Source of the DNA: a bacterium
Lineage (GTDB): Bacteria; J088; JAWLBW01
Assembly: GCA_041690355.1 (NCBI GenBank)
Contig: JAWLHK010000022.1
Span: 1 to 64,000, forward strand
Length of the DNA stretch: 64,000 nt
Reading direction: 5' to 3'
The position numbers and the translations under genes are program-made. Under the pieces are notes generated by a model. That model ran no database searches and had not been told where the DNA came from. It worked only from the letters and a program-made list of their open reading frames with translations. This document shows, one piece after another, positions 3,879-57,867 of this stretch; position 1 is the first letter of the stretch; every line of letters begins with the position of its first letter.

Positions 3879-3920
3879 CCTTGCCCTTTCAGATCAGGAA
3901 TCACATCAGGAATCGAGAAT
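3879..3920 (+). repeat. Modular repeat site 0: CCTTGCC plus degenerate TCAGGAA array
   Basis: CCTTGCC 3879-3885, then TCAGGAA, TCACA, TCAGGAA, TCGAGAA. Confidence 0.65.
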
Positions 3921-4352
3921 CCTTCGGATTCTCGCCACGTGGGTGCCGCTCCAGTAGATCCGCCGGCAGCGAGGACAGGTCCGGAAACGGTCCTGCGTCG
4001 CCGCGACATACGGGGGTACGCGGTCGCGCACCGCGGCGGGGTCGGTCGCCGCGAGGGGCGTGTTGCACACCGCGCACCGCGTGAAGGGCGCCCCGCGCAG
4101 GACCGACGGATAGAGGTCGACGACCTCGCTCCACTGCTCGTCGACGTCGTCGCTCGAGAGCAGCAGGGCCGACTCTGCGCCGCGGCGTTGTACGAGCCGG
4201 TGGTCGCGCGTAAGGATGATCCGGTCCTCGGCCACGGCTCGGCGCACGAGGTCGGCGTCGCCAATCGAGCGCTCGTAGGCCGTATCCACGCCCGCGAGGC
4301 GCAGGCGGCGCGCGAGGCGGCCGAGCATGGCGTCGCAGAAGAAGCGCGCCAC
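3906..4352 (-). CDS. Mut7-C RNase (PIN-like) domain protein
   Basis: F-x-x-DAMLGRLARRLRLAGVDT, ILTRD, RCAVCN...CPRCRRIYWSGTH. Confidence 0.9.
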   Translation of the reverse strand: MARFFCDAMLGRLARRLRLAGVDTAYERSIGDADLVRRAVAEDRIILTRDHRLVQRRGAESALLLSSDDVDEQWSEVVDLYPSVLRGAPFTRCAVCNTPLAATDPAAVRDRVPPYVAATQDRFRTCPRCRRIYWSGTHVARIRRILDS

Positions 4353-4353
4353 G

Positions 4354-4992
4354 TCAGCCCCCGGTGAAGATCGTCGGCGCCGTCTCGCGCAGACCGTCGA
4401 GAATGAACTGCACGGCCATCGCCAGCACGATGAGGCCGAAGAGCCGGCTCACGACGTTGATGCCCGTGACGCCGAGCAGGCGCAGTACGTGCCGGCTGAA
4501 GCGCAGCGCGAGCCAGGTGAGCACGCCGATGGCCAGCAGGATTGCGACCAAGGTCAGCGTGCCCGTCGTATCCGGCCGCTCGGACGAGAAGACGACCACC
4601 GTGCTGATCGCCCCGGGTCCGCCGAGCAGCGGGATCCCCAGGGGCGTGATGGAAACGTCGGCCTTGTGCGTCCCCTCGGTCTTCTCCGACGGCTCGATGC
4701 GCACCCCCGTGTGCGTGGCCTTGAGCAGATCGAGCGCGATGATGAGGATGATCAGCCCGCCGGCGATGCGGAAGGCGGCCGGCGAGATGGAGAAGGCGCG
4801 GAAGACCGCGTCGCCGAAGAAGAGAAAGAAGAGGAGCACGACCGTCGCCGCCATCGGCGCCCGGCGCGCGGCAATGCGCCGGCTCGCGGGGGAGTGGTCG
4901 AGGGTCATGCTCAGGTAAATCGGGACGGCGGCCACCGGATCGATGACCGAAAGCAGGGTGACGAAGGCGCGCACTGTGAATTCGAGGTCCAT
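4354..4992 (-). CDS. MarC family membrane protein
   Basis: VIDP, FRIAGG, PLGIPLLGGPGAI, SRLFGLI. Confidence 0.92.
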   Translation of the reverse strand: MDLEFTVRAFVTLLSVIDPVAAVPIYLSMTLDHSPASRRIAARRAPMAATVVLLFFLFFGDAVFRAFSISPAAFRIAGGLIILIIALDLLKATHTGVRIEPSEKTEGTHKADVSITPLGIPLLGGPGAISTVVVFSSERPDTTGTLTLVAILLAIGVLTWLALRFSRHVLRLLGVTGINVVSRLFGLIVLAMAVQFILDGLRETAPTIFTGG

Positions 4993-5047
4993 TCGGTTTG
5001 CGGATGCTTGTCGCGGTTTGCTAACCTGTCACCTGTCCTGAGTTCCC

Positions 5048-5389
5048 CTGCTTTCCGAGAGGCTGCTCCTGTCCGCCGAAGACATCAGTCTGCGCATCAT
5101 CGAAGTCGGCGCCGAAATTCTCGGCCTCGAGCTCGGGCTCGCCCGGGAGACGTGCAGGCACATCGTCGACAGGGTCGCCCGCCAGGCCGTGCTGCGGGCC
5201 GGATGCGCCGCCTTTCCGCCATCCCCCTCGGAAATGACCGCCGCGAAGCGGCAGCAGATGATGGCCGATGCGCTTTCGCTCCTGGAGCAGGAACTGGCGG
5301 CCCGCGGGGTCGGCGAGGCAGGTCGCCGGCAGGTCCTTATCGATCTGGAAGCATTTTACCGCAGCGTTCGGCTCCTGCCGCCGGAATAG
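5048..5389 (+). CDS. Hypothetical helical protein (start uncertain: CTG 5048 or GTG 5189)
   Basis: Frame open from 5042 with protein-like sequence (ERLLLSAEDISLRIIEVGAEIL...) filling the gap between neighbours. Confidence 0.45.
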   Translation: MLSERLLLSAEDISLRIIEVGAEILGLELGLARETCRHIVDRVARQAVLRAGCAAFPPSPSEMTAAKRQQMMADALSLLEQELAARGVGEAGRRQVLIDLEAFYRSVRLLPPE

Positions 5390-5430
5390 CGCTCTCCCGG
5401 CTACGGCCGGCAACCTGGAAGAAGACCATC

Positions 5431-7236
5431 GTGTTTCGTCGTCGCGTATTTTCCCTGCTTCTCCTCTGCGCCGCGCTCGCGGCGCCGGCATGCACGCGCA
5501 AAGCCGAGCAACCGTTTACCTTCGCCGAAGACGCCGACGCCGCCGCCGAACTCCCCTGGAAGCCCTGGGGGCCCGAGGCCTTCGCCGCCGCGCGGGAGTC
5601 GAACCGGCCCGTTTTTCTGAGCCTCAACAGCACCCTGTGTTTCTGGTGCCGCCTGCTCGATGCGAGCACCTTCGGTAACGAGCGCGTCCAGAAGCTGCTG
5701 ACCGGAAAATTCGTGCTCGTGCGCGCCGACGTCGAAGCGTTTCCGGCCCTCGCCGAACGCTACGCCGAGACCCTGCCGACGATGGCCGTGCTCTCGCCCG
5801 ACGGCGATCTGCTGTGGAGATCGCCGTTTCTGCAGCCGACCGATCTGAACGCGGCCCTCTACAAGGTGTTGCGCGGCGAGACCGGGACGCTCCTTCCGGC
5901 GCACGAGCGCCGGTTCAAGCCGGTCGCGCGCCTGCTGCACCCTGACGACGTCAACGCCTGGATGCGCAAGGCCAACGAGAAATACGATTACGGGAACCGG
6001 GGCTACGGATTCGGCCCGAAAGAGGCGGCCCCGCCGGGCATGGTCTTCGACGTATTCGGAGGCATGCGCATGGCCAGCCGTTCGGCGGCCACGCGCCTGC
6101 TTTACCACGTGCAGAACATGGGCCCGGTCCTCGGGGATGCCGAGGACGGCGGCTTCTACGCGACGACCCGCACGCGCCGCTGGGATCAGCCGATTCCCCT
6201 CAAGCGCGCCGACGAGCAGGTGCGGGCTGCGGCGGCCCTGCTCGGTTACGTCGAGGTGGGGGTGCACGTCCTCCCCGAGCAGTGGGAAGAGGGCCGGAAT
6301 CAGGAACTCCCGCCCGGTCTGCGCGAGGCTGCCGGGAAGGCGGTCGATTACGTGCTCGGCGAGTTGCTCGATGCGAGCGGCGGCGTTCACAACGGCGCCT
6401 ATGCGCCGGACTCCTTCGGCAAGATGACCGAGAAGGGGTGGCGCGACGACGCCGACTTCGAGCGCGATCGGCGCATGCAGGCCGACGTCACGGCGCGCAC
6501 CGCACTCTGGCTGTCGCGCGCTGGACGCTGGGCGCAGCGGGCGGATTGGGTTGCCGCCGCCGCGAAGATGATGGATTGGGTTCTCGCAGGGCGCGATGAA
6601 ACCGGCTTGCTCTATCACCTGCCGGCGATCAAGCGTCACGCAGGCTGGCTGGGCGATCACACGGCCGCGCTCGAGGCGACACTCGAACTCTATCAGTCGA
6701 CGGGCGACGATCGGTACCTCAAAGCGGGTGAAGAACTGTTGACGCAGCTTGACCGCTTCGCCGATGGTCCCCTCTTCGCGACGGTCGTCACCGAGACGGC
6801 GGGCACGCCGCTCGTCGCCGAACTCTCTCCCGTGCTGAACGCCGAAGCGGCGCGCGGGCTGTGGCGCGCCGGCGTGCTGCTCGTATCGCCCGCCCTGCGC
6901 GTGCGCGCGCTGCGGATCATCGAGGTCTACGCCGGCGCGATCAAGAGTTTCGGCGACCGGGAAGAGGAGTATATCCTGTCGACCTGGCTGGCCATGCTTC
7001 CGCCGCTGCGGCTCGAGCTGCCGCGCGCGTGGAAGGACGGCAAGGCGCTGGCGTTCACGTCGACGCCCGACCTGCGTCCGTCGCTGCGCTGGACCGACGA
7101 GCCGGCGGCCCGGCTGTGCGTCTCGGATCTGTGTGCGCCGCCCATCGACGACGAGCGCGTGCTTGCCGAGGCGGCCAACGAAGCGGTGGTTTCGGGCCGG
7201 CTGCCGAAGGTTACGCTGGCGCCGGTCGCCGAATAG
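5431..7236 (+). CDS. Exported DUF255/YyaL-like protein (thioredoxin-like domain plus helical barrel), likely lipoprotein
   Basis: Signal ending LAAPAC; LPWKPWGPEAFAAA...PVFLS...CFWC; GGFY, GWLGDH; GTG start at 5431. Confidence 0.8.
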   Translation: MFRRRVFSLLLLCAALAAPACTRKAEQPFTFAEDADAAAELPWKPWGPEAFAAARESNRPVFLSLNSTLCFWCRLLDASTFGNERVQKLLTGKFVLVRADVEAFPALAERYAETLPTMAVLSPDGDLLWRSPFLQPTDLNAALYKVLRGETGTLLPAHERRFKPVARLLHPDDVNAWMRKANEKYDYGNRGYGFGPKEAAPPGMVFDVFGGMRMASRSAATRLLYHVQNMGPVLGDAEDGGFYATTRTRRWDQPIPLKRADEQVRAAAALLGYVEVGVHVLPEQWEEGRNQELPPGLREAAGKAVDYVLGELLDASGGVHNGAYAPDSFGKMTEKGWRDDADFERDRRMQADVTARTALWLSRAGRWAQRADWVAAAAKMMDWVLAGRDETGLLYHLPAIKRHAGWLGDHTAALEATLELYQSTGDDRYLKAGEELLTQLDRFADGPLFATVVTETAGTPLVAELSPVLNAEAARGLWRAGVLLVSPALRVRALRIIEVYAGAIKSFGDREEEYILSTWLAMLPPLRLELPRAWKDGKALAFTSTPDLRPSLRWTDEPAARLCVSDLCAPPIDDERVLAEAANEAVVSGRLPKVTLAPVAE

Positions 7237-7248
7237 GCAGGGGAACGA

Positions 7249-8211
7249 TCAGGCCTGCAGCAGATCGAGCAGCTGCCGCAGGAACTCGCGCGGCGTCTCG
7301 CCGCGGCTTCCGCGCAGGCGCACGGCAAGCGCCTCTTTGCCGCCCAGGCGCTCGACCGCCAGCTCGCCCGCGAGGCGGGTAAAGGTCGTGAGCGCCCAGC
7401 GGGCCCCCTTCTCACGGCGGCGGGCCTCCAAGCCCGTTTCACGCAGCCACGCGGCGTGCCGATCGACGGCCTCCACGAACTCGGGCAGCCCGAGGCCCGA
7501 GACGGCGCTCGTGCGCAGCGCTTCGGGCACCCAGCCGCCGGGCGCGGCTTCACGGTAGGTGAGCGTCCCTTTCAGGTCGAGCATGGCGCGCCGGGCGAGC
7601 TTCTCCTGATCTGCCTTGTTGATGACGAGCAGGTCGGGAATTTCCATGATGCCCGACTTCATGAACTGCAGGGTGTCGCCCGAGCCGGGCTGCACGACGA
7701 AGACGACCGTGTCGGCGATGTCTTCGATGTCGGTTTCAGACTGCCCGATGCCCACCGTCTCGACGACGACGACGTCGTAGGCGGCCTGCATGACCTCGAC
7801 GGCCGCCTGCGTGGCCCGCGCAAGGCCGCCCAGCTGATCGCCCGAGGCCATCGAGCGCACGAAGATGCCCGTGTCGGCGGAATCGTAGCGGATGCGCGCC
7901 CGGTCGCCGAGCAGGGCGCCTCCCGTGCGCTTCGAGGTCGGATCGACGGCGACGATGCCCACGCTGCGTCCGCGCTGCCGCAGTTCCTGAATGAGCGCGC
8001 CGGTCAGCGTGCTCTTGCCGACCCCCGGCGGGCCCGTCATGCCGACGACATGCGCCCGGCGGGGCGCCTTCTCGAGCCGCTGCAGCAGGTCGTCGATGCT
8101 CGCGCGCAGGGCGGGGCGCTGATCCTCGACCAGATTCAGGGCGAGCGCGACCCCCGCCTTGTCGGCGGCGAGAATGCGGGGAATCAGCTCATCGAGGTTC
8201 GGTGCGTTCAT
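7249..8211 (-). CDS. meaB: Acyl-CoA mutase-associated GTPase MeaB/ArgK
   Basis: GPPGVGKST, AVDPTS, GGALLGDR, VETVGIGQSE, NKAD. Confidence 0.93.
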   Translation of the reverse strand: MNAPNLDELIPRILAADKAGVALALNLVEDQRPALRASIDDLLQRLEKAPRRAHVVGMTGPPGVGKSTLTGALIQELRQRGRSVGIVAVDPTSKRTGGALLGDRARIRYDSADTGIFVRSMASGDQLGGLARATQAAVEVMQAAYDVVVVETVGIGQSETDIEDIADTVVFVVQPGSGDTLQFMKSGIMEIPDLLVINKADQEKLARRAMLDLKGTLTYREAAPGGWVPEALRTSAVSGLGLPEFVEAVDRHAAWLRETGLEARRREKGARWALTTFTRLAGELAVERLGGKEALAVRLRGSRGETPREFLRQLLDLLQA

Positions 8212-8223
8212 GCGGTGGCGCGT

Positions 8224-8252
8224 AAAAAAAGGGGCGGGCAACGACCCGCCCC
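8224..8252 (-). terminator. Rho-independent terminator between ecm and meaB
   Basis: Minus strand GGGGCGGG-tcgttg-CCCGCCCC-TTTTTTT. Confidence 0.8.
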
Positions 8253-8274
8253 CGGAATCTGCGGGAACGTGGCC

Positions 8275-10254
8275 TCAGGCGGCGATGCCGTGCGCCGTGC
8301 GGACGACGTCGACGATATCGGCCATGATGCCGTTCAGCTCGAAGTCCTTCGGGGTGTAGACGCGGCTCACACCGGCCTCCTTGAGCGCCTTCTCGTCTTC
8401 GGGGGGGATGATGCCGCCGACGACGACCGGCACGTTCATGCCCTGTTCCTTCATGCGCGCGAGAACCTGGGGCACGAGGGTTTCGTGCGAGCCGGAGAGG
8501 ATCGAGAGGCCGATGACGTGCACCCCCTCTTCCTGTGCGGCCGTGACGATCTGGTCGGGGGTCAGGCGGATGCCTTCGTACACGACTTCCATGCCGACGT
8601 CGCGCGCCTTCACGGCGATCTGTTCGGCCCCGTTCGAGTGGCCGTCGAGGCCGGGCTTGCCGACGAGGATCTTCAGGCGGCGGCCCAGCTTCTGCGAGAC
8701 CTCTTCGACTTCTTTCTGGACCTTTTTGGCCGCATCGGTCTCTGCCGGGTGCAGGGCCTGGCGGGCGACACCGGTGGGGGCACGATACTCGCCGAAGACC
8801 TCGCGCAGGGCGTGGGCCCACTCGCCGGTGGTGACCCCCGCGTGGGCGGCGGCGATGCTGACCGGCATGATGTTCTGGCCGTTCTTGGCCGCATCCTTGA
8901 GGTTCCGCAAAGCGTCTTCGACGGCGCCGCCGTTCCGCTTCGCGCGGAAGGCGCGCAGGCGCTCGATCTGCTCCCGTTCCGCCTCCGGATCGACCTTCAT
9001 GATGCCGCTGTCCTGGCCCTGCAGCAGCGGGCTCGGCTCCGATTCGCGGTATTTGTTCATGCCGACGACGATCTGTTCGCCCGATTCGATGCGCTGCAGG
9101 CGGCGGTGGTTCGAATCGACGAGCCGCTCCTTGATGTAGCCGCTTTCGACGGCATCGAGCACGCCCATCTCGAGCACCTTGTTGATCTCTTCCTGCGCGC
9201 CGCCGATGAGGTCGTCGACCTTCTGCTGGATGACGGGCGAGCCGTTGAAGATGTCGCCATACTCGAGCAGGTCGGTTTCGTAGGCGATGATCTGCTGGAT
9301 GCGCAGCGACCACTGCTGGTCCCAGGGGCGCGGCAGGCCGAGCGCCTCGTTCCACGCGGGCAGCTGCACGGCGCGGGCCCGGGCGTCCTTCGAGAGCACG
9401 ACGGCGAGCATCTCGAGAATGATGCGCGGCACGTTGTTCTCGGGCTGGCTCTCGGTGAGGCCGAGCGAATTCACCTGCACGCCGTAGCGGAACCGGCGGT
9501 ACTTCTCGTCCTTCACGCCGTAGCGCTCGAGGGTGAGCTTATCCCACATCTGCGTGAAAGCGCGCATCTTGCTCATCTCTTCGATGAAGCGGATGCCGGC
9601 GTTCACGAAGAAGGAGATGCGGCCGACGACCTTGCCCATCTCGGCTTCGCTGACCTTGCCGGTCGCCTTGACGGCGTCGAGGATGGCGATGGCGTTGCAG
9701 AGCGCGTAGGCGAGCTCCTGCACGGGGGTCGCGCCGGCTTCCTGCAGATGGTACGAGCAGATGTTCGTCGGGTTCCACTTCGGGATGTTGTCCACCGTGT
9801 AGGTGATCATGTCGGTGATCAGCCGGATGGACGGCTCCGGCGGAAACACATAGGTGCCGCGCGAGAGGTATTCCTTTATGATGTCGTTCTGGGTGGTCCC
9901 CTGCAGCACCTTCGGATCTACGCCGCGCTGCTCGGCCAGGGCGACGTACATGCTGAGCAGCCAGGCCGCCGTGGCGTTGATGGTCATCGACGTGTTCATC
10001 TGCTCGATCGGAATCTGATCGAACAGGATCGACATGTCTTCGAGGTGCGAGATCGGAACCCCCACCTTGCCGACTTCGCCCTGCGAGCGCGGGTCATCGG
10101 CGTCGTAGCCGGTCTGCGTCGGCAGGTCGAAGGCCACCGAGAGGCCGGTCTGCCCCTTGGCGAGGTTGGTGCGGTAGAGTTCGTTGGACTTCAGGGCCGA
10201 CGAGTGGCCGGAATAGGTCCGCATGACCCAGGGTTTTTCGCGTTCAACGGCCAT
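8275..10254 (-). CDS. ecm: Ethylmalonyl-CoA mutase (MeaA/Ecm), B12-dependent
   Basis: PWVMRTYSGHS, GQTGLSVAFDLPTQTGYD, QPENN, C-terminal GKPGLDGHSNG cobalamin-binding motif. Confidence 0.9.
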   Translation of the reverse strand: MAVEREKPWVMRTYSGHSSALKSNELYRTNLAKGQTGLSVAFDLPTQTGYDADDPRSQGEVGKVGVPISHLEDMSILFDQIPIEQMNTSMTINATAAWLLSMYVALAEQRGVDPKVLQGTTQNDIIKEYLSRGTYVFPPEPSIRLITDMITYTVDNIPKWNPTNICSYHLQEAGATPVQELAYALCNAIAILDAVKATGKVSEAEMGKVVGRISFFVNAGIRFIEEMSKMRAFTQMWDKLTLERYGVKDEKYRRFRYGVQVNSLGLTESQPENNVPRIILEMLAVVLSKDARARAVQLPAWNEALGLPRPWDQQWSLRIQQIIAYETDLLEYGDIFNGSPVIQQKVDDLIGGAQEEINKVLEMGVLDAVESGYIKERLVDSNHRRLQRIESGEQIVVGMNKYRESEPSPLLQGQDSGIMKVDPEAEREQIERLRAFRAKRNGGAVEDALRNLKDAAKNGQNIMPVSIAAAHAGVTTGEWAHALREVFGEYRAPTGVARQALHPAETDAAKKVQKEVEEVSQKLGRRLKILVGKPGLDGHSNGAEQIAVKARDVGMEVVYEGIRLTPDQIVTAAQEEGVHVIGLSILSGSHETLVPQVLARMKEQGMNVPVVVGGIIPPEDEKALKEAGVSRVYTPKDFELNGIMADIVDVVRTAHGIAA

Positions 10255-10376
10255 GATACAGCTTCACAGGGGAATGGGTGAATCGAAAACGTACCTCTGC
10301 GACGGCGGACAACCGGCGGGTGACCGGGCCGCTGCGCCGCGCAACAGTATCATTGTACCGTGCGGGCCGCGCCCCC

Positions 10377-11216: not shown

Positions 11217-11222
11217 GCGAGA

Positions 11223-11461
11223 ATTGACGATTGACGATTTACAATTGACGATTGGGGGGCAAGGGCACCAGAACCGTTCGTCCCGAGCTGACCGAACGGA
11301 GCAGGGTGTAGTTCGACAGCGAGGGAGCGCACCTGAGTGACGAGTTACGAGTTACGAGTGACGAATACCCGCAAGAACGTCGAACCCCCAGCCCTTGCTT
11401 CCTCGGCGCTCAGCGCTTGGTACTTTTTCCGCTCAGGAATCAAGAATCAAGAATCAGGAAT
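11223..11461 (+). repeat. Modular repeat site A
   Basis: (ATTKACR)x4 11223-11253; GCAAGG; CCGTTCG..CGAACGG hairpin; (GAGTKAC)x4 11335-11362; GCAAG..CCCTTGC; (RGCGCTY)x2; (TCARGAA)x4 11433-11461. Confidence 0.9.
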
Positions 11462-14503: not shown

Positions 14504-14546
14504 GGTAACGCGGGTGTAAAAGTATACGGTAGCCAACCGGGGGCCA

Positions 14547-14897
14547 ATTTACAATTTACAATTTACGATTGACGATTGACGATTTACCGGCAAGGACACG
14601 GAGCCGTTCGTCCCGAGCTGACGGCGGGAACGGAGTCGACGCGACAGCGAGGGAGGGCACTTGAATGACGAGTGACGAGTGGGCCCCCCTCCTTCACGGA
14701 TGCAACTGCAGCAAGCGTTCCCCCGAGGGGGGCACTGCACGTACCTGGCACACCGGCATCCGTTCGTCGCGAGCTGACCGGACGGAGCAGGGGGGCGGAC
14801 AGAGAGGAGGGGCATGTCTCGCCGTCGTTCCAGGCGCCGCCTTCCACCGTCGGCTCGACACGAACGGATCTTGCATCCCGTTCAGCGCTTGGCGCTT
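14547..14897 (+). repeat. Modular repeat site B with internal REP-like inverted repeat
   Basis: (ATTKACR)x6 14547-14587; GGCAAGG; ~90 bp similar to site A; (GARTGAC)x2; 21-bp IR 14758-14778/14849-14869; CTTGC; (TYRGCGC)x2. Confidence 0.9.
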
Positions 14898-14948
14898 AAG
14901 GCTGCCCCCCGATTGACCGCAAGGCTCCCGTCCTGCCATGCTGAACGG

Positions 14949-15875
14949 ATGCGAATCACGTACAGCCTGCCCCTCGACGAATACCAGCGCAAACTCGCCG
15001 ACCGCGTCCTGCGCGAGAGCGGCGCCCCCTTCGATCTCACCGACCCGGCCGCTTTCCGCGACAGAGTCGCGCGCGTGTGGGGGCTCTACCAGGCCGTTCG
15101 GCACAAGGAACATCCGTTTCTCCCGCCGCTGCGGATCGCCGACCGCGTCGACCAGCTGATCTATGAGCGCAAGCGACAGGAATACATCGACGACCCGGCC
15201 ATTCCCATCGCGCGTCGCGAGAGACTCGTGCGCAACCTCGCGCGGCTGAACGAGGTGCTCTTCTCCTATCATTGGTTCTTCGCGGCGCTCGAGGATGTCG
15301 TGCGCCGGATCCCGGGCGACGAGGTGTCGATCCTCGACATCGGCAGCGGCCACGGCGAGTTCCCCATCGCGCTCGCGAAGAAGGGGACGCTCGGGGGCAA
15401 ACGCCTGCGGGTCGTCGGCAGCGACATCGATCCCGACTACGTCCGTCAGGCACAGGAACGTGCGCGCGCCGAAGGGGTCGCGGTCGAATTTCGCGTCGTC
15501 GACGCGCTGCAGCTCGATCGCCTCGAAGAGCGCTTCGACGTCATCACGTCGACGCAGACGGTGCACCACTTCTCGCCGGCGTTCGTGGCCGAGCTGATCG
15601 CGCGCGCCCGCCTGAATGCGCGTCACGAGGTGGTGCTCTTCGATGCCCGCCGGTCGGCCTTGAGCCTGGCCGGCGTCACGATCGGGACCCTGGCGGTGGC
15701 GCGCGACCCGATGTTCCTGCACGACGGCGTCTACTCGGTGCGCCGCATGTACAGCCCGGCGGAGTTCGAGATGCTCGCCCGCTGCGCCCCCGGCGGCGCC
15801 GGCGCCCGCGCGCGGAACCTGGCCTACGGGTTCGTGGTGCTCGAAGCCGCAGCCCAATTGACGATTTACGATTGA
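14949..15875 (+). CDS. Class I SAM-dependent methyltransferase
   Basis: ILDIGSGHG, GSDID, VDAL, FDVIT..HH; stop lies inside heptamer array. Confidence 0.85.
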   Translation: MRITYSLPLDEYQRKLADRVLRESGAPFDLTDPAAFRDRVARVWGLYQAVRHKEHPFLPPLRIADRVDQLIYERKRQEYIDDPAIPIARRERLVRNLARLNEVLFSYHWFFAALEDVVRRIPGDEVSILDIGSGHGEFPIALAKKGTLGGKRLRVVGSDIDPDYVRQAQERARAEGVAVEFRVVDALQLDRLEERFDVITSTQTVHHFSPAFVAELIARARLNARHEVVLFDARRSALSLAGVTIGTLAVARDPMFLHDGVYSVRRMYSPAEFEMLARCAPGGAGARARNLAYGFVVLEAAAQLTIYD

Positions 15876-15975
15876 CGATTGACGATTTACCCGGCAAGGA
15901 CCCGGTATCTATGCCCTTGTGGTCCTTGATGCTCAGCGCTTAGCGCTTGGCGCTTGGCGCTCAGGGCTTGGCGCT
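15857..15975 (+). repeat. Modular repeat site C
   Basis: (ATTKACG)x5; CAAGGACC 15895-15902 / GGTCCTTG 15921-15928 hairpin; (RGCGCTY)x6. Confidence 0.92.
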
Positions 15976-22165: not shown

Positions 22166-22196
22166 GGGATTTTTATCCCGAGCGGATGCCGGCCGG

Positions 22197-22282
22197 GGAG
22201 CGGGGGAGTGGGGGAGGGGGAGAGGGGGGGATCCGACAAGGACCGACAAGGACCAGCAAGGACCAAGAAGGACCCGGCAAGG
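22197..22282 (+). repeat. G-rich element copy 1 plus 10-mer array
   Basis: GGAGCGGGGGAGTGGGGGAGGGGGAGAGGGGGGGAT then ~5x GACCRRSAAG-like units ending GGCAAGG. Confidence 0.85.
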
Positions 22283-22558
22283 CCGCTCGCCGCCGGAGGC
22301 CGAACGCACCCCGGAAGCACTGTCCCCCCGAGCGGCAGTGAGGGGGCTATCCTGGTGCACTGGTGCACAGAACGTCAAGATTGGCTGCGCTGGCGCCGAA
22401 GCGGCCACGTGCTCGCCGCATGCAGTGAAGGGCGAGGGTGCACATGCGGCGTCAGGGCGGCCCATTGCCTCGACGCGGCCGCGTCGCGGCTATCCTGCGC
22501 TCCGAAGCGCGCACGGCAGAACCTTTCCGCGTGCTGGAACCGCGAACGAAAAACTACA

Positions 22559-43577: not shown

Positions 43578-43631
43578 CCCTTGCAGGAGCGGGGGAGTGG
43601 GGGAGGGGGAGAAGGGGGGATGAAGCAAGGG
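43578..43631 (+). repeat. G-rich element copy 2 flanked by CCCTTGC/GCAAGGG
   Basis: 43586-43621 matches 22197-22232 at 35/36 nt. Confidence 0.85.
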
Positions 43632-43692
43632 CGAAGCAAGAACAAGAGTTCGGTGAACGGCGCGACCTGCAGCGTCGGCCCGGAGGTCCCGT

Positions 43693-48613: not shown

Positions 48614-48737
48614 CGGTACGTAGTTTCGGTTCCCAATCGGCCGGGCTCGGACGGATTGGATCGAGCCATTACAAGATAATCGCCCGCTGCCCGGCTCGCA
48701 ACCAGCAGGGGGCACGGTGGGCAGAGCACATCGGGAA

Positions 48738-48917
48738 ATTTACGATTGACGATTTACGATTGACGATTGCGGCAAGGACCCAAAACCACCTTGCCCTTGC
48801 CGTGTTGGCGCTTAGCGCTCAGCGCTTGGCGCTTCACCCGGTGACGAGTGACGAGTGACGAACTTCGGACAAGTTCTCTTGGTCCGGTTCAAGAATCAGG
48901 AATCAGGAATCAGGAAT
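48738..48917 (+). repeat. Modular repeat site D
   Basis: (ATTKACG)x4; GGCAAGG..CCTTGCC; (TYRGCGC)x4; (GTGACGA)x3; GGACAAG..CTTGGTCC; (TCARGAA)x4. Confidence 0.93.
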
Positions 48918-50292: not shown

Positions 50293-50368
50293 GATGCCCG
50301 ATGTTCAATGCCCGATGCCCAACCAGACGAAAAACTGACAACTGAAAACTGGAAACTGAAAACTGAAA
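50293..50368 (+). repeat. Two further heptamer arrays (site E)
   Basis: (RATGYYC)x4 50293-50320; (AAAACTG-like)x5 50331-50368. Confidence 0.85.
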
Positions 50369-51607: not shown

Positions 51608-51623
51608 GTGAATGCCTTTCGCT

Positions 51624-53015
51624 TCAGGATTTCTTCTGCCGGTTGCGATAGTCCGGGATGTCCTTCTGCGGAACCCGGGAGACCGCGAGGGCGTCGGGGG
51701 GAACGTCGCGGGTGACCGTCGTGCCGGCGCCCACGACCGCATTGCGCCCGACGCGCACGGGGGCCACGAGCTGCGTGTCGCTGCCGATGAAGGCGCCGTC
51801 TTCGATGACTGTCCGGTGCTTGTGCACACCGTCGTAATTGCAGGTGATCGTGCCGGCGCCGACGTTCACCTTTTCGCCGATTTCGGCATCCCCCAGGTAC
51901 GTGAGGTGATTGGCCTTCGAGCCGCGGCCGATGCGGGTCTTCTTCGTTTCGACGAAGTTGCCCACGTGCACGTCGTCGGCCAGCTCGCTGGCGGGGCGCA
52001 GGTGCGCGAGGGGACCGATGCTGCAGCCGTTGCCCACGGCCGACTGTTCGAGAACGGAGTGCGCTTTCACGTGCACGTCGTCGGCCAGCGTGCAGTCTTC
52101 GATGCGCACGCCCATTTCAATGCGGCAGCGCGCGCCGATGCGGGTCGCGCCGGCCAGGTGCGTCATCGGTTCGAGCACGGTGTCGCGGCCGAGGGCCACG
52201 TCGGCTTCCACATAGGTCCGCTGCGGATCGAGCACGGTCACGCCGGCGCGCATGTGCGCCGCGAGAATGCGCTGCTGGAGAATCGCGGCGGCTTCGGCCA
52301 GCTGCAGGCGATCGTTGATGCCGAGAAAGTCGCGGTAGTCGGGGGCCCGGTAGGCGGCGGCCTTCTTCCCCTGTTCCCGCGCGAGCCGCAGGATATCCGT
52401 CAGATAGTATTCCCCCTGCGCGTTATCGGGACGCACGGCGTCGAGCAGGGCGAAGAGGACGCCGATGTCACAGGCGTACAGGCCGGTATTGCACAGGGTG
52501 ACCTTACGTTCCTCTTCCGTCGCATCCTTGTGTTCGACGATGCGATCGACGGCGCCGTCGGCCTGCAGCAGAATACGGCCGTAGCCGGTGGGGTCCGGAT
52601 AGTCGGCGGCGAGCACCGTCACGGCCGCCCCGGACGCCGCATGGGTTGCCAGAAAGGCGCGCAGGGTGTCGTCGGTGAGCAGCGGCGTGTCGCCGGTGAG
52701 GATGAGCACGGTTCCGCCGGATGGCAGGGCCTCGCGCGCCGAGAGCACGGCGTGCCCGGTACCCCGCTGCTCGGCCTGGAGCGCGAAGCGTACCTCGGCG
52801 CGGCCCGCAAAGGCTTCGCGCACCCGGTCGGCGCCATGACCGATGACGACCACGGTGGAGGCGGCCCCGAGGCGCTGCACGAGATCGACCGGGTAGCGCA
52901 GCATCGGGCGGCCGAGCACCGGGTGCAGGACCTTGGGCAGGTCCGATTTCATACGGGTGCCCTGGCCGGCCGCCAGGATCAGGGCATGAAAGGGGACGGG
53001 AGAAGGCGAAGACAT
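51624..53015 (-). CDS. glmU: Bifunctional GlmU
   Basis: LAAGQGTRMKS, GTGHA, EYYLTD, GNFVETKK, HLTYLGD, NYDG. Confidence 0.97.
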   Translation of the reverse strand: MSSPSPVPFHALILAAGQGTRMKSDLPKVLHPVLGRPMLRYPVDLVQRLGAASTVVVIGHGADRVREAFAGRAEVRFALQAEQRGTGHAVLSAREALPSGGTVLILTGDTPLLTDDTLRAFLATHAASGAAVTVLAADYPDPTGYGRILLQADGAVDRIVEHKDATEEERKVTLCNTGLYACDIGVLFALLDAVRPDNAQGEYYLTDILRLAREQGKKAAAYRAPDYRDFLGINDRLQLAEAAAILQQRILAAHMRAGVTVLDPQRTYVEADVALGRDTVLEPMTHLAGATRIGARCRIEMGVRIEDCTLADDVHVKAHSVLEQSAVGNGCSIGPLAHLRPASELADDVHVGNFVETKKTRIGRGSKANHLTYLGDAEIGEKVNVGAGTITCNYDGVHKHRTVIEDGAFIGSDTQLVAPVRVGRNAVVGAGTTVTRDVPPDALAVSRVPQKDIPDYRNRQKKS

Positions 53016-53307
53016 GGGGTAAACGGTATCAGATGCGGCAGAACGACGGAAATCCGGAGGGGCCGCCGGCCGGTGCGGTGAAACGGGCCGATTCGGTTCT
53101 CCCGGCGAGCCATTCCTTGTAGCATATCGATGACGCCCTGCGCAAATTTTGCGAGCGCGCCGTGCCGAGGGGCGGGCAGGCTGCCGGGCGCGCTATGACG
53201 CGCCGCCTTGACGCGATGCGTTAAATCGGCTAGACTTCAGGTATCCACCCCGCCGTTTACGCGCCCGAATCGCGCACACCTGTTCGCAAGGGGGCAGGAG
53301 GGTTACC

Positions 53308-53496
53308 ATGACGCTAGGCATACTTCTTGCTGTTTTTGTCCTCGGGGCCCTTACGGCCCAGCACCTGCTGCTCGGCGGGTCCGACGCCTGCGAACACGAG
53401 TTCGTCATGACCGAGCGGGCCGCTTACTCCGAGTTCAGCCAGGTGAAATATGTATGCGAGAAATGCGGAACGCGCCTGCACGGACAGGCTCCGTGA
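53308..53496 (+). CDS. Small membrane-anchored protein with C-x-H...C-x2-C
   Basis: SD AGGAGG; TM helix; CEH...CEKC. Confidence 0.6.
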   Translation: MTLGILLAVFVLGALTAQHLLLGGSDACEHEFVMTERAAYSEFSQVKYVCEKCGTRLHGQAP

Positions 53497-53510
53497 CGCC
53501 GGGGGGATGT

Positions 53511-53789
53511 ATGAACGAACCGATGCGTGAGTCGATGACGATGGACAAGCCGAGACAGGTGTTCATCGAGCGCCGCGAAGGGGCCCTGGAGGGTGTTCTC
53601 CATGTGGTCGAAGCCTGCCCCGACCTGATGATCCTGGGCGACGGCGCCGTCGAGGCGCAGACCGTCGACGATGTGTCGCTCGGCCTGCTGCGCGCCAGGC
53701 ACCCCGTCTGTCAGACCTGCCAGGACCTGGAGGTGGCCGCCAGCGCCGATCGCGTTCGCTACCTTCTGGCCAGCCTCACGCGCCGCTGA
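53511..53789 (+). CDS. Small hypothetical protein (H...CP...CxxC)
   Basis: Follows previous ORF; CQTC. Confidence 0.55.
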   Translation: MNEPMRESMTMDKPRQVFIERREGALEGVLHVVEACPDLMILGDGAVEAQTVDDVSLGLLRARHPVCQTCQDLEVAASADRVRYLLASLTRR

Positions 53790-53927
53790 GCGCAGCCGCG
53801 GCTCAGCGGCCGCCCACCTGCCGGGCGACGCCGGACTGCCGTTTTTTGTCAGCCGCAGCCTGACAAAAATTGCGAGGCATTCCTCTGTGATCCCCGTCAC
53901 ACCCGCACGCCGCGCGGGCTTCCGGGC

Positions 53928-55406
<1,479 letters not shown>

Positions 55407-55441
55407 GCAGAACTCCGGTGCGGATGCGGAAAAAGGCAAAG

Positions 55442-55473
55442 AAAAAGGGCGGCGGAGTGACCCTCCGCCGCCC
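55442..55473 (-). terminator. Rho-independent terminator after cold-shock gene
   Basis: GGGCGGCGGAG/CTCCGCCGCCC stem plus U-tract on minus. Confidence 0.8.
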
Positions 55474-55492
55474 CCCAAGTGCAGGAGAAGAA

Positions 55493-55696
55493 TCAGTTGA
55501 TGCGGCTTACCCGCTGTGCCTGAAGCCCCTTGGGCCCCTGGATGATTTCGAATTCGACGGGTTCACCCTGCGTCAGGGTGCGAAAACCGTTTCCATCGAT
55601 GGCGGAGTAGTGGACGAAGACGTCCTGGCCGTCGTCCTGCTCGATGAAACCGTAACCCTTCTCTTTGTTAAACCATTTGACTTTGCCGTTCGCCAT
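55493..55696 (-). CDS. Cold-shock protein (CspA family)
   Basis: [22 protein letters not shown]. Confidence 0.96.
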
Positions 55697-55881
55697 ACGA
55701 AACACAGTCTCCGTTCCAGAAGAAAAACGTGGGTCGCGGGAGCGCTCCGGGGTATAGAGCCCTCTGGGCCAGCACGGCAACACCATATCACTCCGCCGCA
55801 AGCCCGGGCAAGAGGATTCGTTGACGCAGCGCGCCGGAGCCGGCGCCCGCCCGGGGGGCCACCGTGCGCTGCAAAGGGAAC

Positions 55882-55914
55882 AAAAAAAGCCGCCCCCGGG
55901 GAGGGGGCGGCTTT
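55882..55914 (-). terminator. Rho-independent terminator after atpE
   Basis: AAAGCCGCCCCC/GGGGGCGGCTTT stem plus U7 on minus. Confidence 0.85.
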
Positions 55915-55936
55915 CACCGGAAAACCGGAACCGGCC

Positions 55937-56257
55937 TTAGAACTTGCCGGTCAGAATGATCGCCACGACGAGCGCGTAGATGACCAGCGACTCGATCAGG
56001 GCGAGACCGATGATCATCGGCGTCGTGATCTTGCCGGCGGCGCCCGGGTTGCGGCCGATGCTGTCGAGGGCGGCCGTCACGGCGCGGCCCTGGCCCAGCG
56101 CGCCGCCGATGGCGGCCAGGCCGATGGCCAGCGCGGCGGCGATGGCGATCCAGCTGGCGTCGGTGGTGCCGGTGGCGGCGACGCCGTCCTGCGCGAACGC
56201 AGCCGAGGCCGTCAGAACGAGCGCCACGGTCGTGGCGATGGTGGTGAGTTTCTTCAT
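55937..56257 (-). CDS. atpE: ATP synthase F0 subunit c
   Basis: G.A.IGGALGQG, RNP loop, IESLVIY. Confidence 0.95.
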   Translation of the reverse strand: MKKLTTIATTVALVLTASAAFAQDGVAATGTTDASWIAIAAALAIGLAAIGGALGQGRAVTAALDSIGRNPGAAGKITTPMIIGLALIESLVIYALVVAIILTGKF

Positions 56258-56336
56258 GGGACTACTCCTTCGTATGGGGTCGGGGAACAATTCCCCGAGA
56301 CAGAACTTGCGGCAATCGTCTATCGGCGGCGACGGC

Positions 56337-57056
56337 TCAGTGGTCGTGCGCCATGGCGCCCGAGATGTACACCATCGAGAGCAGCGAAAAGACGAAGGCC
56401 TGAATGAAGCTGATGAAAATCCCGAGGCCCAGGAAGATGACCGGAATGCCGACTTCCGGAAGGTTCAGGCCCAGGGTGTGCCAGATGTTCGAGAAGATCC
56501 CGAGCACGATGTGGTCGCCGTTGATGTTGCCGTAGAGACGGATGGTCAGCGACAGGGGGCGCACGGCATGCGAGATCATTTCAATCGCGAACATGAGCGG
56601 GGCCAGCCAGATGATGGGGCCCATGAAGTGCTTGGCGTAGCCGGCGCCGTGCTCCTTGATACCGTAATAGTGGGTCAGGAGAAAGATGATGACGGCGACG
56701 GCGATGTTCGTGTTCACGTTCTGCGTCGGCGGCAGAAAGCCGGGGATGACGCCGATCAGGTTCGACACGAAGATGAAGATGAAGACCGTGCCGATGACCG
56801 GCGTGAACTTGCGCGCGAGGTGATGGCCCATGGCGTCGGAGACCATGTTGTACAGGGCCTCGGCCGAGAGCTCCATCAGGTTGCGCAGCGTGAGCTTGCC
56901 GTCGGGCAGCACGTCGTCCTTGGCCTTCTTGACCGCGCGCCCGGCCATGACCGAGGCGACGATGAGCAGCAGGGCGACGAAGATCGCGGTCGCGATGTGA
57001 TCGAGCCGCGGATCGATGTGCAGCAGTCCGCCGAACCAGGTGGTAGGGTGTTCCAT
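56337..57056 (-). CDS. atpB: ATP synthase F0 subunit a
   Basis: N..G.IPG, PT, RPLSL.IRLYGNI, IQAFVF. Confidence 0.95.
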   Translation of the reverse strand: MEHPTTWFGGLLHIDPRLDHIATAIFVALLLIVASVMAGRAVKKAKDDVLPDGKLTLRNLMELSAEALYNMVSDAMGHHLARKFTPVIGTVFIFIFVSNLIGVIPGFLPPTQNVNTNIAVAVIIFLLTHYYGIKEHGAGYAKHFMGPIIWLAPLMFAIEMISHAVRPLSLTIRLYGNINGDHIVLGIFSNIWHTLGLNLPEVGIPVIFLGLGIFISFIQAFVFSLLSMVYISGAMAHDH

Positions 57057-57068
57057 GTGCGCTAACTC

Positions 57069-57455
57069 CTACGCGTCGGGCAGTCGTTTGCCCGGAAACA
57101 TCAGTCGAACGAGAGGCTCGCCCAGAATGCCGGCCGGCATGGCCCCGAGGCCTGCCAGCAGCGAAACGGGGGGAACCCCGAAAACGAACACCAGCGTCGC
57201 GAGAACGGCCGCGAGCGCCGCCAGCTTGAACATGTAGAGCGCGACCACCGCGCCCTTGCCCCGCCCTTCACCGAGCATCCGTTCTACGGTGAAGCGCAGC
57301 CAGCGAAAATTCAGATACCCGACCACGCCGCCGGTCAGGGTGCCGATGCCCCACCGCACGCCGAGCAGCCACCCGAGCACCGCGGCCGCGACGGCCGAGA
57401 GCCCGAGAATGCTCCACTGCATGCGATCGAGCTTACCGGTTTCTTCCCTGTCCAC
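57069..57455 (-). CDS. atpI: ATP synthase subunit I
   Basis: 4-TM protein directly upstream of atpB; NF..L, K motifs. Confidence 0.75.
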   Translation of the reverse strand: MDREETGKLDRMQWSILGLSAVAAAVLGWLLGVRWGIGTLTGGVVGYLNFRWLRFTVERMLGEGRGKGAVVALYMFKLAALAAVLATLVFVFGVPPVSLLAGLGAMPAGILGEPLVRLMFPGKRLPDA

Positions 57456-57687
57456 TCAGAATCCGCAGCGAGCGCACGAAGGCGGTGAAGCCTCCGACGC
57501 TGCCCGCGAGGATGAACACCAGCAGCAGCCAGGGTTCGGTCCCGAAAACGTCATCCAGCTTCCAGCCCACCAGCGCGCCGGCCGCGATCATGGCCGTGAG
57601 CTGCATGCCTGCCGCCGCGAGCTCGGTGAGCTGTCTCAACAGCGATTTTTCGTCGCTTGGCGAGGGGTCGGCCGGCACCGGGTTCAC
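57433..57687 (-). CDS. atpZ: AtpZ/AtpI (gene 1) family protein
   Basis: G..LD..FGT.PW.....G...GF. Confidence 0.8.
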   Translation of the reverse strand: MNPVPADPSPSDEKSLLRQLTELAAAGMQLTAMIAAGALVGWKLDDVFGTEPWLLLVFILAGSVGGFTAFVRSLRILSGQGRNR

Positions 57688-57740
57688 CGTGAGGTCACCA
57701 CGTCTGGCAACGCACGCGGAGGACCGGAAAGTAAACAGAT

Positions 57741-57770
57741 TTTATACCACGGCGGGACGCGGCGCGTCAA
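57741..57770 (-). promoter_or_regulatory. Putative promoter of atpZIBE
   Basis: TTGACG-18-TATAAA with extended TG on minus. Confidence 0.55.
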
Positions 57771-57792
57771 AGTGAAAACAGTGCCTTCAGGT

Positions 57793-57867
57793 GGAGGGGG
57801 AGAGTGGGGGAGTGGGAGAGGGGGGGATCCGGCAAGGGCCGCGAACGCACGCAGACCTTGCCGATCC
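57793..57867 (+). repeat. G-rich element copy 3 with GGCAAGG/CCTTGCC hairpin
   Basis: G-tracts then GGATCCGGCAAGG 57825-57837 / CCTTGCCGATCC 57856-57867. Confidence 0.85.

What the first reader, a model, noticed from the sequence alone, without database searches (positions are those of the whole stretch)
3879..57867. Dispersed, polarised family of modular intergenic elements: interchangeable short tandem arrays joined by a GCAAGG/CCTTGC motif
Seen: nine intergenic sites (3879, 11223, 14547, 15857, 22197, 43578, 48738, 50293, 57793) are assembled from a small parts kit. The parts are A=(ATTKACR)n, B=(TYRGCGC)n, C=(GAGTKAC)n, D=(TCARGAA)n, a G-rich tract, and two single-copy heptamer arrays. 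Arrays A, C and G are followed downstream, usually within ~10 nt, by a (G)CAAG(G) motif. B is always, and D usually, preceded by CTTG(C). Read on its own strand each half is therefore 'array then CAAG', and halves face each other. Part order differs by site (A-C-B-D, A-C-B, A-B, A-B-C-D, D alone). All five A-D sites share one orientation, as do all three G sites. Inference: this is not independent slippage. It looks like the footprint of a dedicated recombination, insertion or protein-binding system acting at gene-block junctions. No recombinase or transposase is encoded in this window. From memory, unverified: heptamer arrays occur as cyanobacterial STRR repeats and beside four-helix-bundle (PF05635/TIGR02436) genes, but I know no description of this shuffled multi-family grammar.
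Basis: partly seen in the sequence, partly recalled or inferred. Interest (0 to 1): 0.85.

Follow-up and report, generated by a model that had tools for sequence, protein, structure and literature searches.

The report
Mosaic heptamer repeats from gene cassettes
The gaps between genes here hold copies of a genome-wide patchwork of 7-base tandem repeats which, elsewhere in the same genome, form the two arms around a small four-helix-bundle gene, so a long-unexplained kind of bacterial repeat is tied to a gene family of unknown function.

Summary
The nine sites are real. Period-7 arrays are genome-wide (393, against 28 of period 8) and 90% are intergenic. The array-then-CAAG rule holds genome-wide (A: 40 of 101, 6 expected).

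The window-wide polarity does not hold. Composites face either way, whatever the gene direction or GC skew. Only the G-rich tracts are biased (antisense 12, sense 2).

The parts do not combine freely: A or C faces B in 95 of 147 facing pairs.

Eight of 10 four-helix-bundle genes (PF05635/TIGR02436) in this genome lie between inverted arrays of families A, D, E, F, an H-like unit, another unit and the G tract, some with the same inner CAAG motif. B- and C-armed genes exist in other phyla. Identical arrays occur in many phyla, but none in the five nearest genomes searched.

I read the window's sites as gene-less, partly chimeric arm modules of such cassettes that multiplied in this lineage. The copying mechanism is unknown, and no recombinase is tied to them.

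This scan already found heptamer-armed four-helix-bundle cassettes on other DNA (253 notes) and such mosaics elsewhere in this genome. New here are the pairing grammar, the inner motif and the one-gene-many-arrays pattern.

The parts
3877..3914 (-). Site 1: CCCTTGCCC followed by a short D-type array (TCAGGAA-like units); D stands alone. A perfect small hairpin (GAGAATCC TTCG GGATTCTC) follows directly.
11222..11254 (+). Site 2: A array (ATTKACG x4.6), with CAAGGGC 6 nt downstream (11260).
11274..11334 (+). Site 2: left half of dispersed element X (starts CCGTTCGTCCCGAGCTGAC), lying between the A and C arrays.
11335..11366 (+). Site 2: C array (GAGTKAC x4.3), with CAAGAAC at 11372 and CCCTTGC at 11391-11397.
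11402..11461 (-). Site 2: B array (11402-11420) and D array (11433-11461). Both read 'array then CAAG' on the minus strand.
14545..14587 (+). Site 3: A array (x6.1), with CAAGGAC at 14591.
14604..14682 (+). Site 3: left half of element X (14604-14662), then a short C array (14663-14682) with no CAAG nearby.
14684..14759 (+). Site 3: element Y. Nine places in the genome match its core (3 for the reversed control); it also lies inside some A/C-B composites.
14760..14867 (.). Site 3: a full copy of the palindromic element X (CCGTTCGTCGCGAGCTGAC ... GTCGGCTCGACACGAACGG).
14882..14898 (-).
15855..15975 (.). Site 4, between convergent genes: A array (15855-15890, +), CAAGGACC...GGTCCTTG (15895-15928), B array (15931-15975, -). 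Both arrays overlap the ends of the flanking reading frames.
22195..22284 (+). Site 5: G-rich tract (22195-22231), followed by about four CAAGGACC-type decamer repeats (TRF: period 10, 3.9 copies).
43586..43646 (+). Site 6: G-rich tract, followed by GAAGCAAGGGC and GAAGCAAGAAC.
48737..48917 (.). Site 7: A (48737-48769, +), CGGCAAGG...CCTTGCCG (48770-48802), B (48805-48834, -), C (48841-48862, +), CAAG/CTTG (48870, 48878), D (48889-48917, -).
50293..50368 (+). Site 8: two further heptamer arrays (GATGCCC x4, AAAACTG x5.4). There is no CAAG/CTTG motif. Related arrays occur elsewhere in the genome.
57793..57863 (+). Site 9: G-rich tract (57793-57827), followed by CGGCAAGG...CCTTGCCG (57830-57863).

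Best explanation
WHAT IT IS. The nine sites are copies of a genome-wide population of gene-less 'arm modules'. A module is a short tandem heptamer array or the G-rich tract, a few bases of linker, and an inner (G)CAAG(G) motif.

Elsewhere in the same genome, two modules of one family face each other around a small four-helix-bundle gene (PF05635/TIGR02436). That gene appears to carry its own promoter (read by eye). The layout matches ORF-bearing intervening sequences of 23S rRNA.

In the window the gene is absent, and the facing modules are mostly of different families: A or C on one side, B and D on the other. Such a pair can match only through the short CAAG/CTTG motif.

WHAT IS SHOWN.
- The arrays, the motif rule and the pairing rules.
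- The gene-between-arms layout in this genome.
- The same arrays in distant phyla, and their absence from the nearest genomes searched.

WHAT IS INFERRED.
- Cassettes came in by horizontal transfer.
- Their arms, alone or joined into A/C-B(-D) chimeras together with pieces of other small repeats (X, Y), were then copied about 400 times into spacers. They landed without regard to gene direction, as a selfish or neutral repeat would.
- The copying step is unknown. My preferred guess is that the four-helix-bundle proteins act in trans on arrays of their own type, as one RAYT gene serves many REP copies.
For: 1. Gene between arms. PF05635 hits in this genome: 11, of which 10 are above the cut-off; four that I scanned match TIGR02436. 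Eight of the 10 loci have inverted heptamer arms of 27-34 nt, 84-97% complementary, enclosing 462-619 nt. The arm families are A, D, E (twice), F, an H-like unit, AATGGTC and the G tract. By eye, five of the 10 have a CAAG-type motif on the inner side of at least one arm.

2. Signs of gene loss. Three of the 10 genes look damaged: one has an in-frame TAA, one is truncated, and one has its N-terminal part in another frame.

3. Copying rather than slippage. There are 863 modules of two or more units, against 56 in the reversed genome. They lie in 397 of 2339 spacers. Facing pairs: A x B 48, C x B 47, A x A 14, D x D 7, A x C 2, B x B 2. Inner regions are homologous: 291 pairs at 65% identity or more, against 6 after shuffling.

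4. Neutral placement.

5. Horizontal origin. The exact A, C and B arrays occur in at least 109, 49 and 40 loci of many phyla. There are 0 A and 0 C arrays in the same-family genome, three same-phylum genomes and one other genome. The same-family genome does have 5 PF05635 genes, with other heptamer arms.

6. Gene and arms go together. All 3 four-helix-bundle genes found beside A arrays in other phyla match this genome's A-armed protein best, at 46-55% identity. In 4 of 5 A-rich genomes, the 5 best homologues carry A-type arms and the 7 weaker ones carry other arms. Among 80 relatives, 67 have at least one arm. In the 41 with both arms, the two units differ by 0.83 on average, against 2.15 for permuted partners (0 of 5000 permutations reach it). 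Arm class clusters on the protein tree: 25 changes, against 34.5 on average and 28 at least in 300 shuffles. A C-armed gene and a B-armed gene exist in other phyla.
Against: - No B-armed or C-armed gene was found in this genome, yet B and C are among the commonest parts.
- The dominant A/C-B pairs are not complementary, so they cannot form the long stem of a true cassette. A simple 'cassette that lost its gene' predicts like-with-like pairs, and these are the minority (A x A 14, D x D 7 of 147).
- The CAAG...CTTG region is not a selected hairpin. Own partners match less often than permuted ones (2 of 69, against a mean of 5.4). The mean folding z-score is -0.56.
- In other phyla, only 5 of 198 array loci had a four-helix-bundle gene within the 300-700 nt fetched. 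That search used a small profile built from 9 proteins of this genome, so some genes may have been missed.
- Protein relatives of equal identity (45-57%) mostly carry other units. In the same-family genome, arms agree only for the 74%-identical pair. The gene-arm link may therefore be plain co-inheritance.
- One of the 5 A-rich genomes gave no A-type homologue.
- No target duplication or other trace of an insertion mechanism was seen.
- The relatives are fragmented assemblies, in which repeats can be lost.
Confidence: 0.55

Rival explanations
1. A dedicated site-specific recombination or insertion system. The (G)CAAG(G)/CCTTG(C) pair would be the core site of a recombinase or hairpin-cutting nuclease that joins arms of different cassettes, so making the shuffled grammar.
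For: - One inner motif is shared by array families that are otherwise unrelated.
- Inverted copies lie 15-40 nt apart.
- The motif is itself repeated at a 10-11 nt period beside G tracts.
- Heterotypic joints dominate.
- The motif also stands on the inner side of arms in gene-bearing cassettes.
Against: - No recombinase gene lies beside the elements examined. The RAYT gene is not flanked by them, and none of the 6 tyrosine recombinase genes is on the window's contig.
- The spacing between the two motif copies varies widely.
- Only about 40-60% of arrays carry the motif.
- Family H and the arrays at 50293 lack it.
- In other phyla the same arrays are followed by other short motifs.
Confidence: 0.15
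2. Host-serving signals. The arrays and the central motif would be binding sites for a nucleoid, transcription or RNA-binding protein, or would act as terminators or RNA stabilisers. They would be kept by selection at each site and unrelated to the cassettes.
For: - G tracts avoid the sense strand (12 v 2 in co-directional spacers).
- D arrays often sit just beyond a gene end, next to strong hairpins.
- A arrays contain TTGACG/TTGACA words.
- Published work proposes regulatory roles for other heptamer repeats (PMC4679880, abstract and passages; preprint 10.1101/2022.06.06.494920, listing only).
Against: - A/C-B composites show no bias to gene direction and fill divergent, co-directional and convergent spacers in proportion to spacer length.
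- The inner hairpin is weak.
- The nearest genomes searched lack the A and C arrays altogether, so no conserved host function depends on them.
- No Rfam family matched in the window.
Confidence: 0.15
3. Ordinary long simple-sequence repeats. Heptamers would arise in place by replication slippage, and similar units in different places and phyla would be convergent.
For: - Heptanucleotide repeats are the commonest long SSR class in many bacteria, and slippage has been proposed as the cause (Mrazek et al. 2007, as summarised in passages of PMC4679880 and PMC4692102).
- Copy numbers vary between sites here, from 2 to about 11 units.
Against: - The same ordered variants recur. The 25-mer with its T/G pattern is found many times here and letter for letter in at least 109 loci of other phyla; the C array likewise.
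- The flanking motif is fixed.
- Partners follow rules.
- The non-repeat inner regions are homologous.
- The arrays are absent from the nearest relatives searched.
Confidence: 0.1

Closest known systems
Heptanucleotide long simple-sequence repeats, including the STRR of heterocystous cyanobacteria (Mrazek et al. 2007 as summarised in PMC4679880; Calothrix heptanucleotides as cited in PMC4692102; the name STRR is recalled)
   Same: Tandem 7-nt units, several unit families per genome, overwhelmingly intergenic, and of unexplained function.
   Different: Here the arrays carry a fixed inner motif, pair by rule into composites, and serve as arms of four-helix-bundle genes. The passages I read mention none of this. 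'Four helix' and 'intervening sequence' occur 0 times in PMC4679880.
TAACTGA direct repeats of marine Beggiatoaceae, cyanobacteria and Bacteroidetes (PMC4679880; abstract and passages read)
   Same: One heptamer array is shared by distant phyla, and horizontal spread is suspected with no mechanism known.
   Different: Those repeats sit mostly in one orientation just upstream of start codons. The composites here have no such bias.
GGGNATC / GGGGAYT repeats of Xanthomonas and Nostoc (PMC4692102; abstract and passages read)
   Same: G-rich intergenic repeats with quadruplex potential, spread over the genome.
   Different: The G tract here is a conserved stretch of about 30 nt with period about 8. 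It is followed by CAAGG and lies mostly antisense to the flanking genes. One copy pair flanks a four-helix-bundle gene.
ORF-bearing intervening sequences of 23S rRNA (Coxiella burnetii IVS with an S23p ORF; PMC4990558, abstract and passages read)
   Same: A PF05635-type ORF lies between terminal inverted repeats. That paper notes tandem heptamers (GACAGAT) before the ORF, RNase III cutting at the first repeat, and decay of the ORF.
   Different: The window's sites have no ORF, lie between protein genes, and mostly have non-complementary arms. No RNase III processing is shown here.
REP/BIME elements with their RAYT gene (recalled knowledge)
   Same: Hundreds of short intergenic repeats form mosaic combinations. 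A single-copy gene is flanked by the same repeat. The pattern is one gene, many gene-less copies.
   Different: The repeat units are tandem heptamers, not GTAG-headed palindromes. The flanked gene is a four-helix-bundle protein with no known catalytic activity. This genome's own RAYT-type gene is not flanked by the arrays.

Membership tests
Heptanucleotide long SSR / STRR-type repeats | Tandem repeats of a 7-nt unit, longer than chance allows | tested here: met
   410 period-7 arrays against 28 of period 8 under the same rule; TRF rows in the window.
Heptanucleotide long SSR / STRR-type repeats | Mainly intergenic, with several unit families in one genome | tested here: met
   352 of 393 arrays are under 20% coding. 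There are at least 7 families plus 59 other arrays. Gene calls come from my own rough caller.
Heptamer-armed four-helix-bundle cassette (IVS-like) | A PF05635/TIGR02436 ORF between the arms | tested here: not met
   None of the 11 PF05635 hits lies on contig C22, which holds the window. The feature is met at 8 of 10 loci elsewhere in the genome.
Heptamer-armed four-helix-bundle cassette (IVS-like) | Two arms that are reverse complements of each other | tested here: not met
   Window pairs are A or C against B or D. Genome-wide, 95 of 147 facing pairs are A/C x B. Only the CAAG/CTTG words match.
Heptamer-armed four-helix-bundle cassette (IVS-like) | Arm sequences of the same families as those of gene-bearing cassettes | tested here: met
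   A, D and the G tract flank genes in this genome. C and B flank genes in other phyla.
23S rRNA intervening sequence | Inserted in a 23S rRNA helix and excised by RNase III | not testable with these tools
   The sites lie between protein genes, and no rRNA family matched in the window. No RNA data: no sequencing run was listed.
REP/BIME with RAYT | The RAYT (Y1 transposase) gene is flanked by the repeat it serves | tested here: not met
   The single PF01797 hit, at C3:284649-284990, has no array module or X copy within about 1 kb.
Intrinsic terminator | A stable G+C-rich hairpin with a T run, placed after genes | tested here: not met
   Inner regions have a mean folding z-score of -0.56. 27 of 95 composites lie in divergent spacers, as expected from spacer length.
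MITE | Terminal inverted repeats and a target-site duplication | tested here: not met
   The outer flanks of 60 printed composites show no duplication by eye. The outer arrays of A/C-B composites are not inverted copies.
Integron-like or Xer-like recombination site | A cognate tyrosine recombinase next to or acting on the site | tested here: inconclusive
   There are six PF00589 genes in the genome, none on C22. I did not examine whether any lies near an array.

The most novel reading that the evidence does not exclude
Four-helix-bundle (PF05635) proteins are the sequence-specific partners of dispersed heptamer arrays. Each protein type recognises its own unit, sits between two copies of it, and maintains or spreads hundreds of gene-less copies in trans, as a RAYT does for REPs. 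In this lineage a shared inner CAAGG motif lets arms of different cassettes be joined, which gives the shuffled A/C-B-D grammar. This would explain both the old excess of 7-nt repeats in bacterial genomes and the function of a large orphan protein family.
Probability: 0.25. Interest if true: 0.85.

Novelty: new variant of a known kind. Interest (0 to 1): 0.6.

Why it matters
Heptanucleotide repeats have been known since at least 2007 as the most over-represented long simple repeats in many bacteria, with no accepted cause. The 'S23p / four-helix-bundle' proteins are a very large family with no known role outside diversity-generating retroelements.

This genome offers both in one place. It has at least six array families that each have one gene-bearing copy and tens to hundreds of gene-less copies. 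It also has rule-bound chimeras, and a sister genus that lacks the main families. That makes a binding-specificity experiment and a filled-versus-empty comparison directly designable.

In four literature searches I found no paper linking dispersed heptamer arrays to PF05635 genes other than the Coxiella IVS paper. Subscription journals are not covered.

Tried and rejected
- RNA evidence: the look-up of sequencing runs listed no run for window:10000-16500. No RNA holder was listed; this says nothing about expression.
- Rfam, gathering threshold, whole window: 0 matches.
- Promoter or ribosome-site idea. D arrays end in AGGAATG and A arrays hold TTGACG. I dropped this after gene calling showed that the window's flanking genes are on the other strand and that composites have no orientation bias.
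- Hairpin idea for CAAGG...CCTTG: only 50 perfect stems of 8 bp or more genome-wide, 29 of them intergenic and 7 near arrays. The covariation test was negative.
- Replichore polarity: at array level r=0.21 with GC skew, but nothing at composite level. Arrays within one site are not independent.
- Orthologous filled or empty sites: the nearest genome is only same-family. The two genes flanking site 2 lie on different contigs there, so no comparison was possible.
- First regex for G tracts found 1 place. The second found 24 but missed two of the window's three copies.
- Reverse transcriptase: one PF00078 gene at C18, with no array module within about 2.5 kb.
- Supplementary tables of PMC4679880 and PMC4692102 were not opened. 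They may list repeat contexts that bear on the comparison.
Full report
THE OBSERVATION

A regex scan for two or more units gives these part orders:
- 11222-11461: A, C, B, D.
- 15855-15964: A, B.
- 48737-48917: A, B, C, D.
- 3889-3914: D alone.
- 22195, 43586 and 57793: G-rich tracts.
- 50293 and 50331: two other heptamer arrays.

In the window, 9 of 10 A, C or G arrays have CAAG within 10 nt downstream. All 4 B arrays have CTTG within 12 nt upstream.

I called genes with a rough caller of my own: codon log-odds trained on long high-GC3 frames. It gave 3764 genes and 86% coding. Starts are approximate. By these calls, all nine sites lie between genes or touch only their ends.

GENOME-WIDE CHECK

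The window is contig C22 of a 4.64-Mb, 65.6% G+C genome in 42 contigs.
- Arrays of three or more copies with at most one mismatch number 410 for period 7. The same rule gives 196 for period 6, 28 for period 8 and 7 for period 9.
- After merging there are 393 arrays: A about 101, C 69, D 54, B 44, E (GGACGYC) 24, H (GACTGMV) 23, F (GCGCTGG) 19, and 59 others.
- 352 of the 393 are under 20% coding.
- CAAG within 18 nt downstream: A 40 of 101 (6.0 expected from random intergenic windows), C 31 of 69 (4.1), E 10 of 24 (1.4), F 6 of 19 (1.1), H 0 of 23 (1.4).
- CTTG upstream: B 20 of 44 (2.7 expected), D 32 of 54 (3.3 expected).
- A looser scan (two or more units) finds 863 modules, against 56 in the reversed genome. 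Of these, 786 are intergenic, lying in 397 of 2339 spacers of 30 nt or more.

WHAT DID NOT HOLD

Orientation is mixed along every large contig.

At array level there is a weak link to GC skew: 165 concordant against 103 discordant, r=0.21. Arrays of one site are not independent, though. For the 95 A/C-B composites there is no link to skew (p=0.54) and none to gene direction (29 antisense, 20 sense, p=0.25). Their spread over divergent, co-directional and convergent spacers (28, 52 and 20%) follows spacer length (31, 52 and 17%).

Only the G tract is biased. Of the 24 copies my regex found (it missed two of the window's three), 12 lie antisense to both neighbours and 2 lie sense. 19 of the 24 are followed by [CA]AAG.

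The CAAGG...CCTTG pair is not a selected hairpin. The complement of the left 7-mer occurs in its own right half in 2 of 69 elements, against 5.4 on average with permuted partners. The mean folding z-score is -0.56.

THE GRAMMAR

Neighbouring modules at most 150 nt apart are facing in 147 cases, in tandem in 158 and back to back in 32.
- Facing pairs: A x B 48, C x B 47, A x A 14, D x D 7. By contrast, A x C is 2, B x B is 2 and C x C is 1.
- Tandem pairs, on the unit strand: C then A 35, A then C 27, D then B 16.

So the common element is [A and/or C] - inner region - [B] - [D].

Its inner regions are homologous: 291 of 3570 pairs are at least 65% identical, against 6 after shuffling. They fall into a few diverged subfamilies. 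No target duplication was seen by eye at the outer ends.

Two further dispersed elements are built into the mosaics.
- X is a palindromic element of roughly 110-150 nt. Its left end occurs 105 times and its right end 60 times, against 0 for a reversed control.
- Y is rare: 9 places match its core, against 3 for the reversed control.

THE GENE LINK

- The genome has 11 PF05635 hits, 10 above the cut-off, and none on C22. It also has 2 GxxExxY genes.
- Four proteins I scanned match TIGR02436 above its cut-off.
- Eight of the 10 loci have inverted heptamer arms of 27-34 nt, 84-97% complementary, around 462-619 nt.
- The arm families are A (C20:48752), D (C7:230799), E (C5:69058 and C2:371993), F (C5:79357), an H-like unit (C7:58156), AATGGTC (C26:16397) and the G tract (C23:56172).
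- By eye, five of the 10 have a CAAG-type motif on the inner side of an arm. Several have a TTGACA-type promoter before the gene, also by eye.
- Three genes look damaged.
- Two of six cassettes examined lie beside tRNA genes.

ELSEWHERE

The hosts include Bacteroidota, Acidobacteriota, Chloroflexota, Verrucomicrobiota, Chromatiales and others. The C 25-mer occurs in 49 loci and a B 21-mer in 40 loci.

With a small profile built from 9 proteins of this genome, a four-helix-bundle gene lay within the fetched flank in few of these loci:
- 3 of 109 for A (300 nt flanks);
- 1 of 49 for C (700 nt flanks);
- 1 of 40 for B (700 nt flanks).

So gene-less arrays are the rule everywhere.

The three genes beside A arrays all match this genome's A-armed protein best, at 46-55% identity. 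The C-armed gene also matches it best, at 39%. The B-armed gene matches the E and F types best, at 42-44%.

Among the 80 best relatives of the A-type protein:
- 67 have at least one arm and 41 have both;
- the two arms of a locus differ by 0.83 letters per unit, against 2.15 for permuted partners (0 of 5000 permutations reach it);
- arm class clusters on the protein tree: 25 changes, against 34.5 on average and 28 at least in 300 shuffles. Kinship alone can produce this.

In 4 of 5 A-rich genomes, the 5 closest homologues (43-56% identity) have A-type arms and the 7 weaker ones (32-42%) have other arms. The fifth genome gave no hit at E 1e-8.

NEAREST RELATIVES

The collection holds one same-family genome and three same-phylum genomes. 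These four and one other genome have 0 A and 0 C arrays.

The same-family genome has 5 PF05635 genes with other heptamer arms. One of them, 74% identical to the AATGGTC-armed protein here, has the same arm unit.

These are fragmented assemblies, so 'not found' is the right wording.

READING

The parts kit consists of arms of several four-helix-bundle cassette lineages, plus pieces of X and Y. The window's sites are gene-less copies, mostly of one chimeric design (A/C against B and D), that multiplied in this lineage after the cassettes arrived.

How they are copied is not shown. The in-trans model, one gene serving many arrays, is my preferred guess. Recombination at the CAAG motif is the main rival.

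No recombinase is tied to the elements.

KNOWN WORK

- Heptanucleotide repeats as the commonest long SSRs, with slippage as the proposed cause: Mrazek et al. 2007, seen only as summarised in passages of PMC4679880 and PMC4692102.
- Cross-phylum TAACTGA repeats: PMC4679880.
- G-rich heptamers: PMC4692102.
- The Coxiella IVS, with an S23p ORF, terminal inverted repeats and tandem GACAGAT heptamers at the RNase III site: PMC4990558.

Four searches found no other paper linking the two.

This scan has 253 earlier notes on heptamer arrays with four-helix-bundle genes in other genomes, and 10 notes on heptamer mosaics in this genome.

Noticed in passing
window 11274-11334, 14604-14662, 14760-14867: Element X is a palindromic dispersed repeat (CCGTTCGTCCCGAGCTGAC ... 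GTCGGCTCGACACGAACGG). Its left end occurs 105 times and its right end 60 times in the genome, nearly all intergenic. Left halves alone are built into the heptamer mosaics. No Rfam match in the window.
   Followed up: partly
window 14684-14759: Element Y is about 75 nt long and holds a CCCCC..GGGGG hairpin and GCAGCAAGCGTTCCC. Nine places in the genome match its core, against 3 for the reversed control. It also sits inside some A/C-B composites.
   Followed up: partly
window 22236-22284: The CAAGG motif is itself tandemly repeated as a decamer (ACAAGGACCN, about 4 copies) beside a G tract, and at an 11-nt period at 43622-43646. The mirror-image CTTG repeats flank the G-tract cassette at G000:C23:56172. 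The helical spacing hints at a DNA-binding protein.
   Followed up: no
genome-wide; window 22195, 43586, 57793: The conserved G-rich tract of about 30 nt lies antisense to both flanking genes in 12 co-directional spacers and sense in 2. The two window copies that the regex missed are also antisense.
   Followed up: partly
G000:C3:284649-284990: A single RAYT-like Y1 transposase gene is followed by several small GGCC...GGCC-type hairpins. These may be a separate REP family, unrelated to the heptamer arrays.
   Followed up: no
G000:C11:140038-140388: A GxxExxY gene is followed by about three tandem copies of a roughly 75-nt unit that contains CGCGGAGG octamer repeats.
   Followed up: no
L122 920-1004 and L123 1027-1102: Two gene-bearing cassettes lie 46 and 73 nt from tRNA genes: tRNA-Leu(gag) beside the A-armed cassette and tRNA-Phe(gaa) beside the G-tract cassette.
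   Followed up: partly
G000:C14:71939-72092, C18:1-550, C5:187102-187580: Whole modules (array plus spacer, or X copies) are themselves tandemly duplicated three to four times, at periods of about 65, 145 and 160 nt.
   Followed up: no
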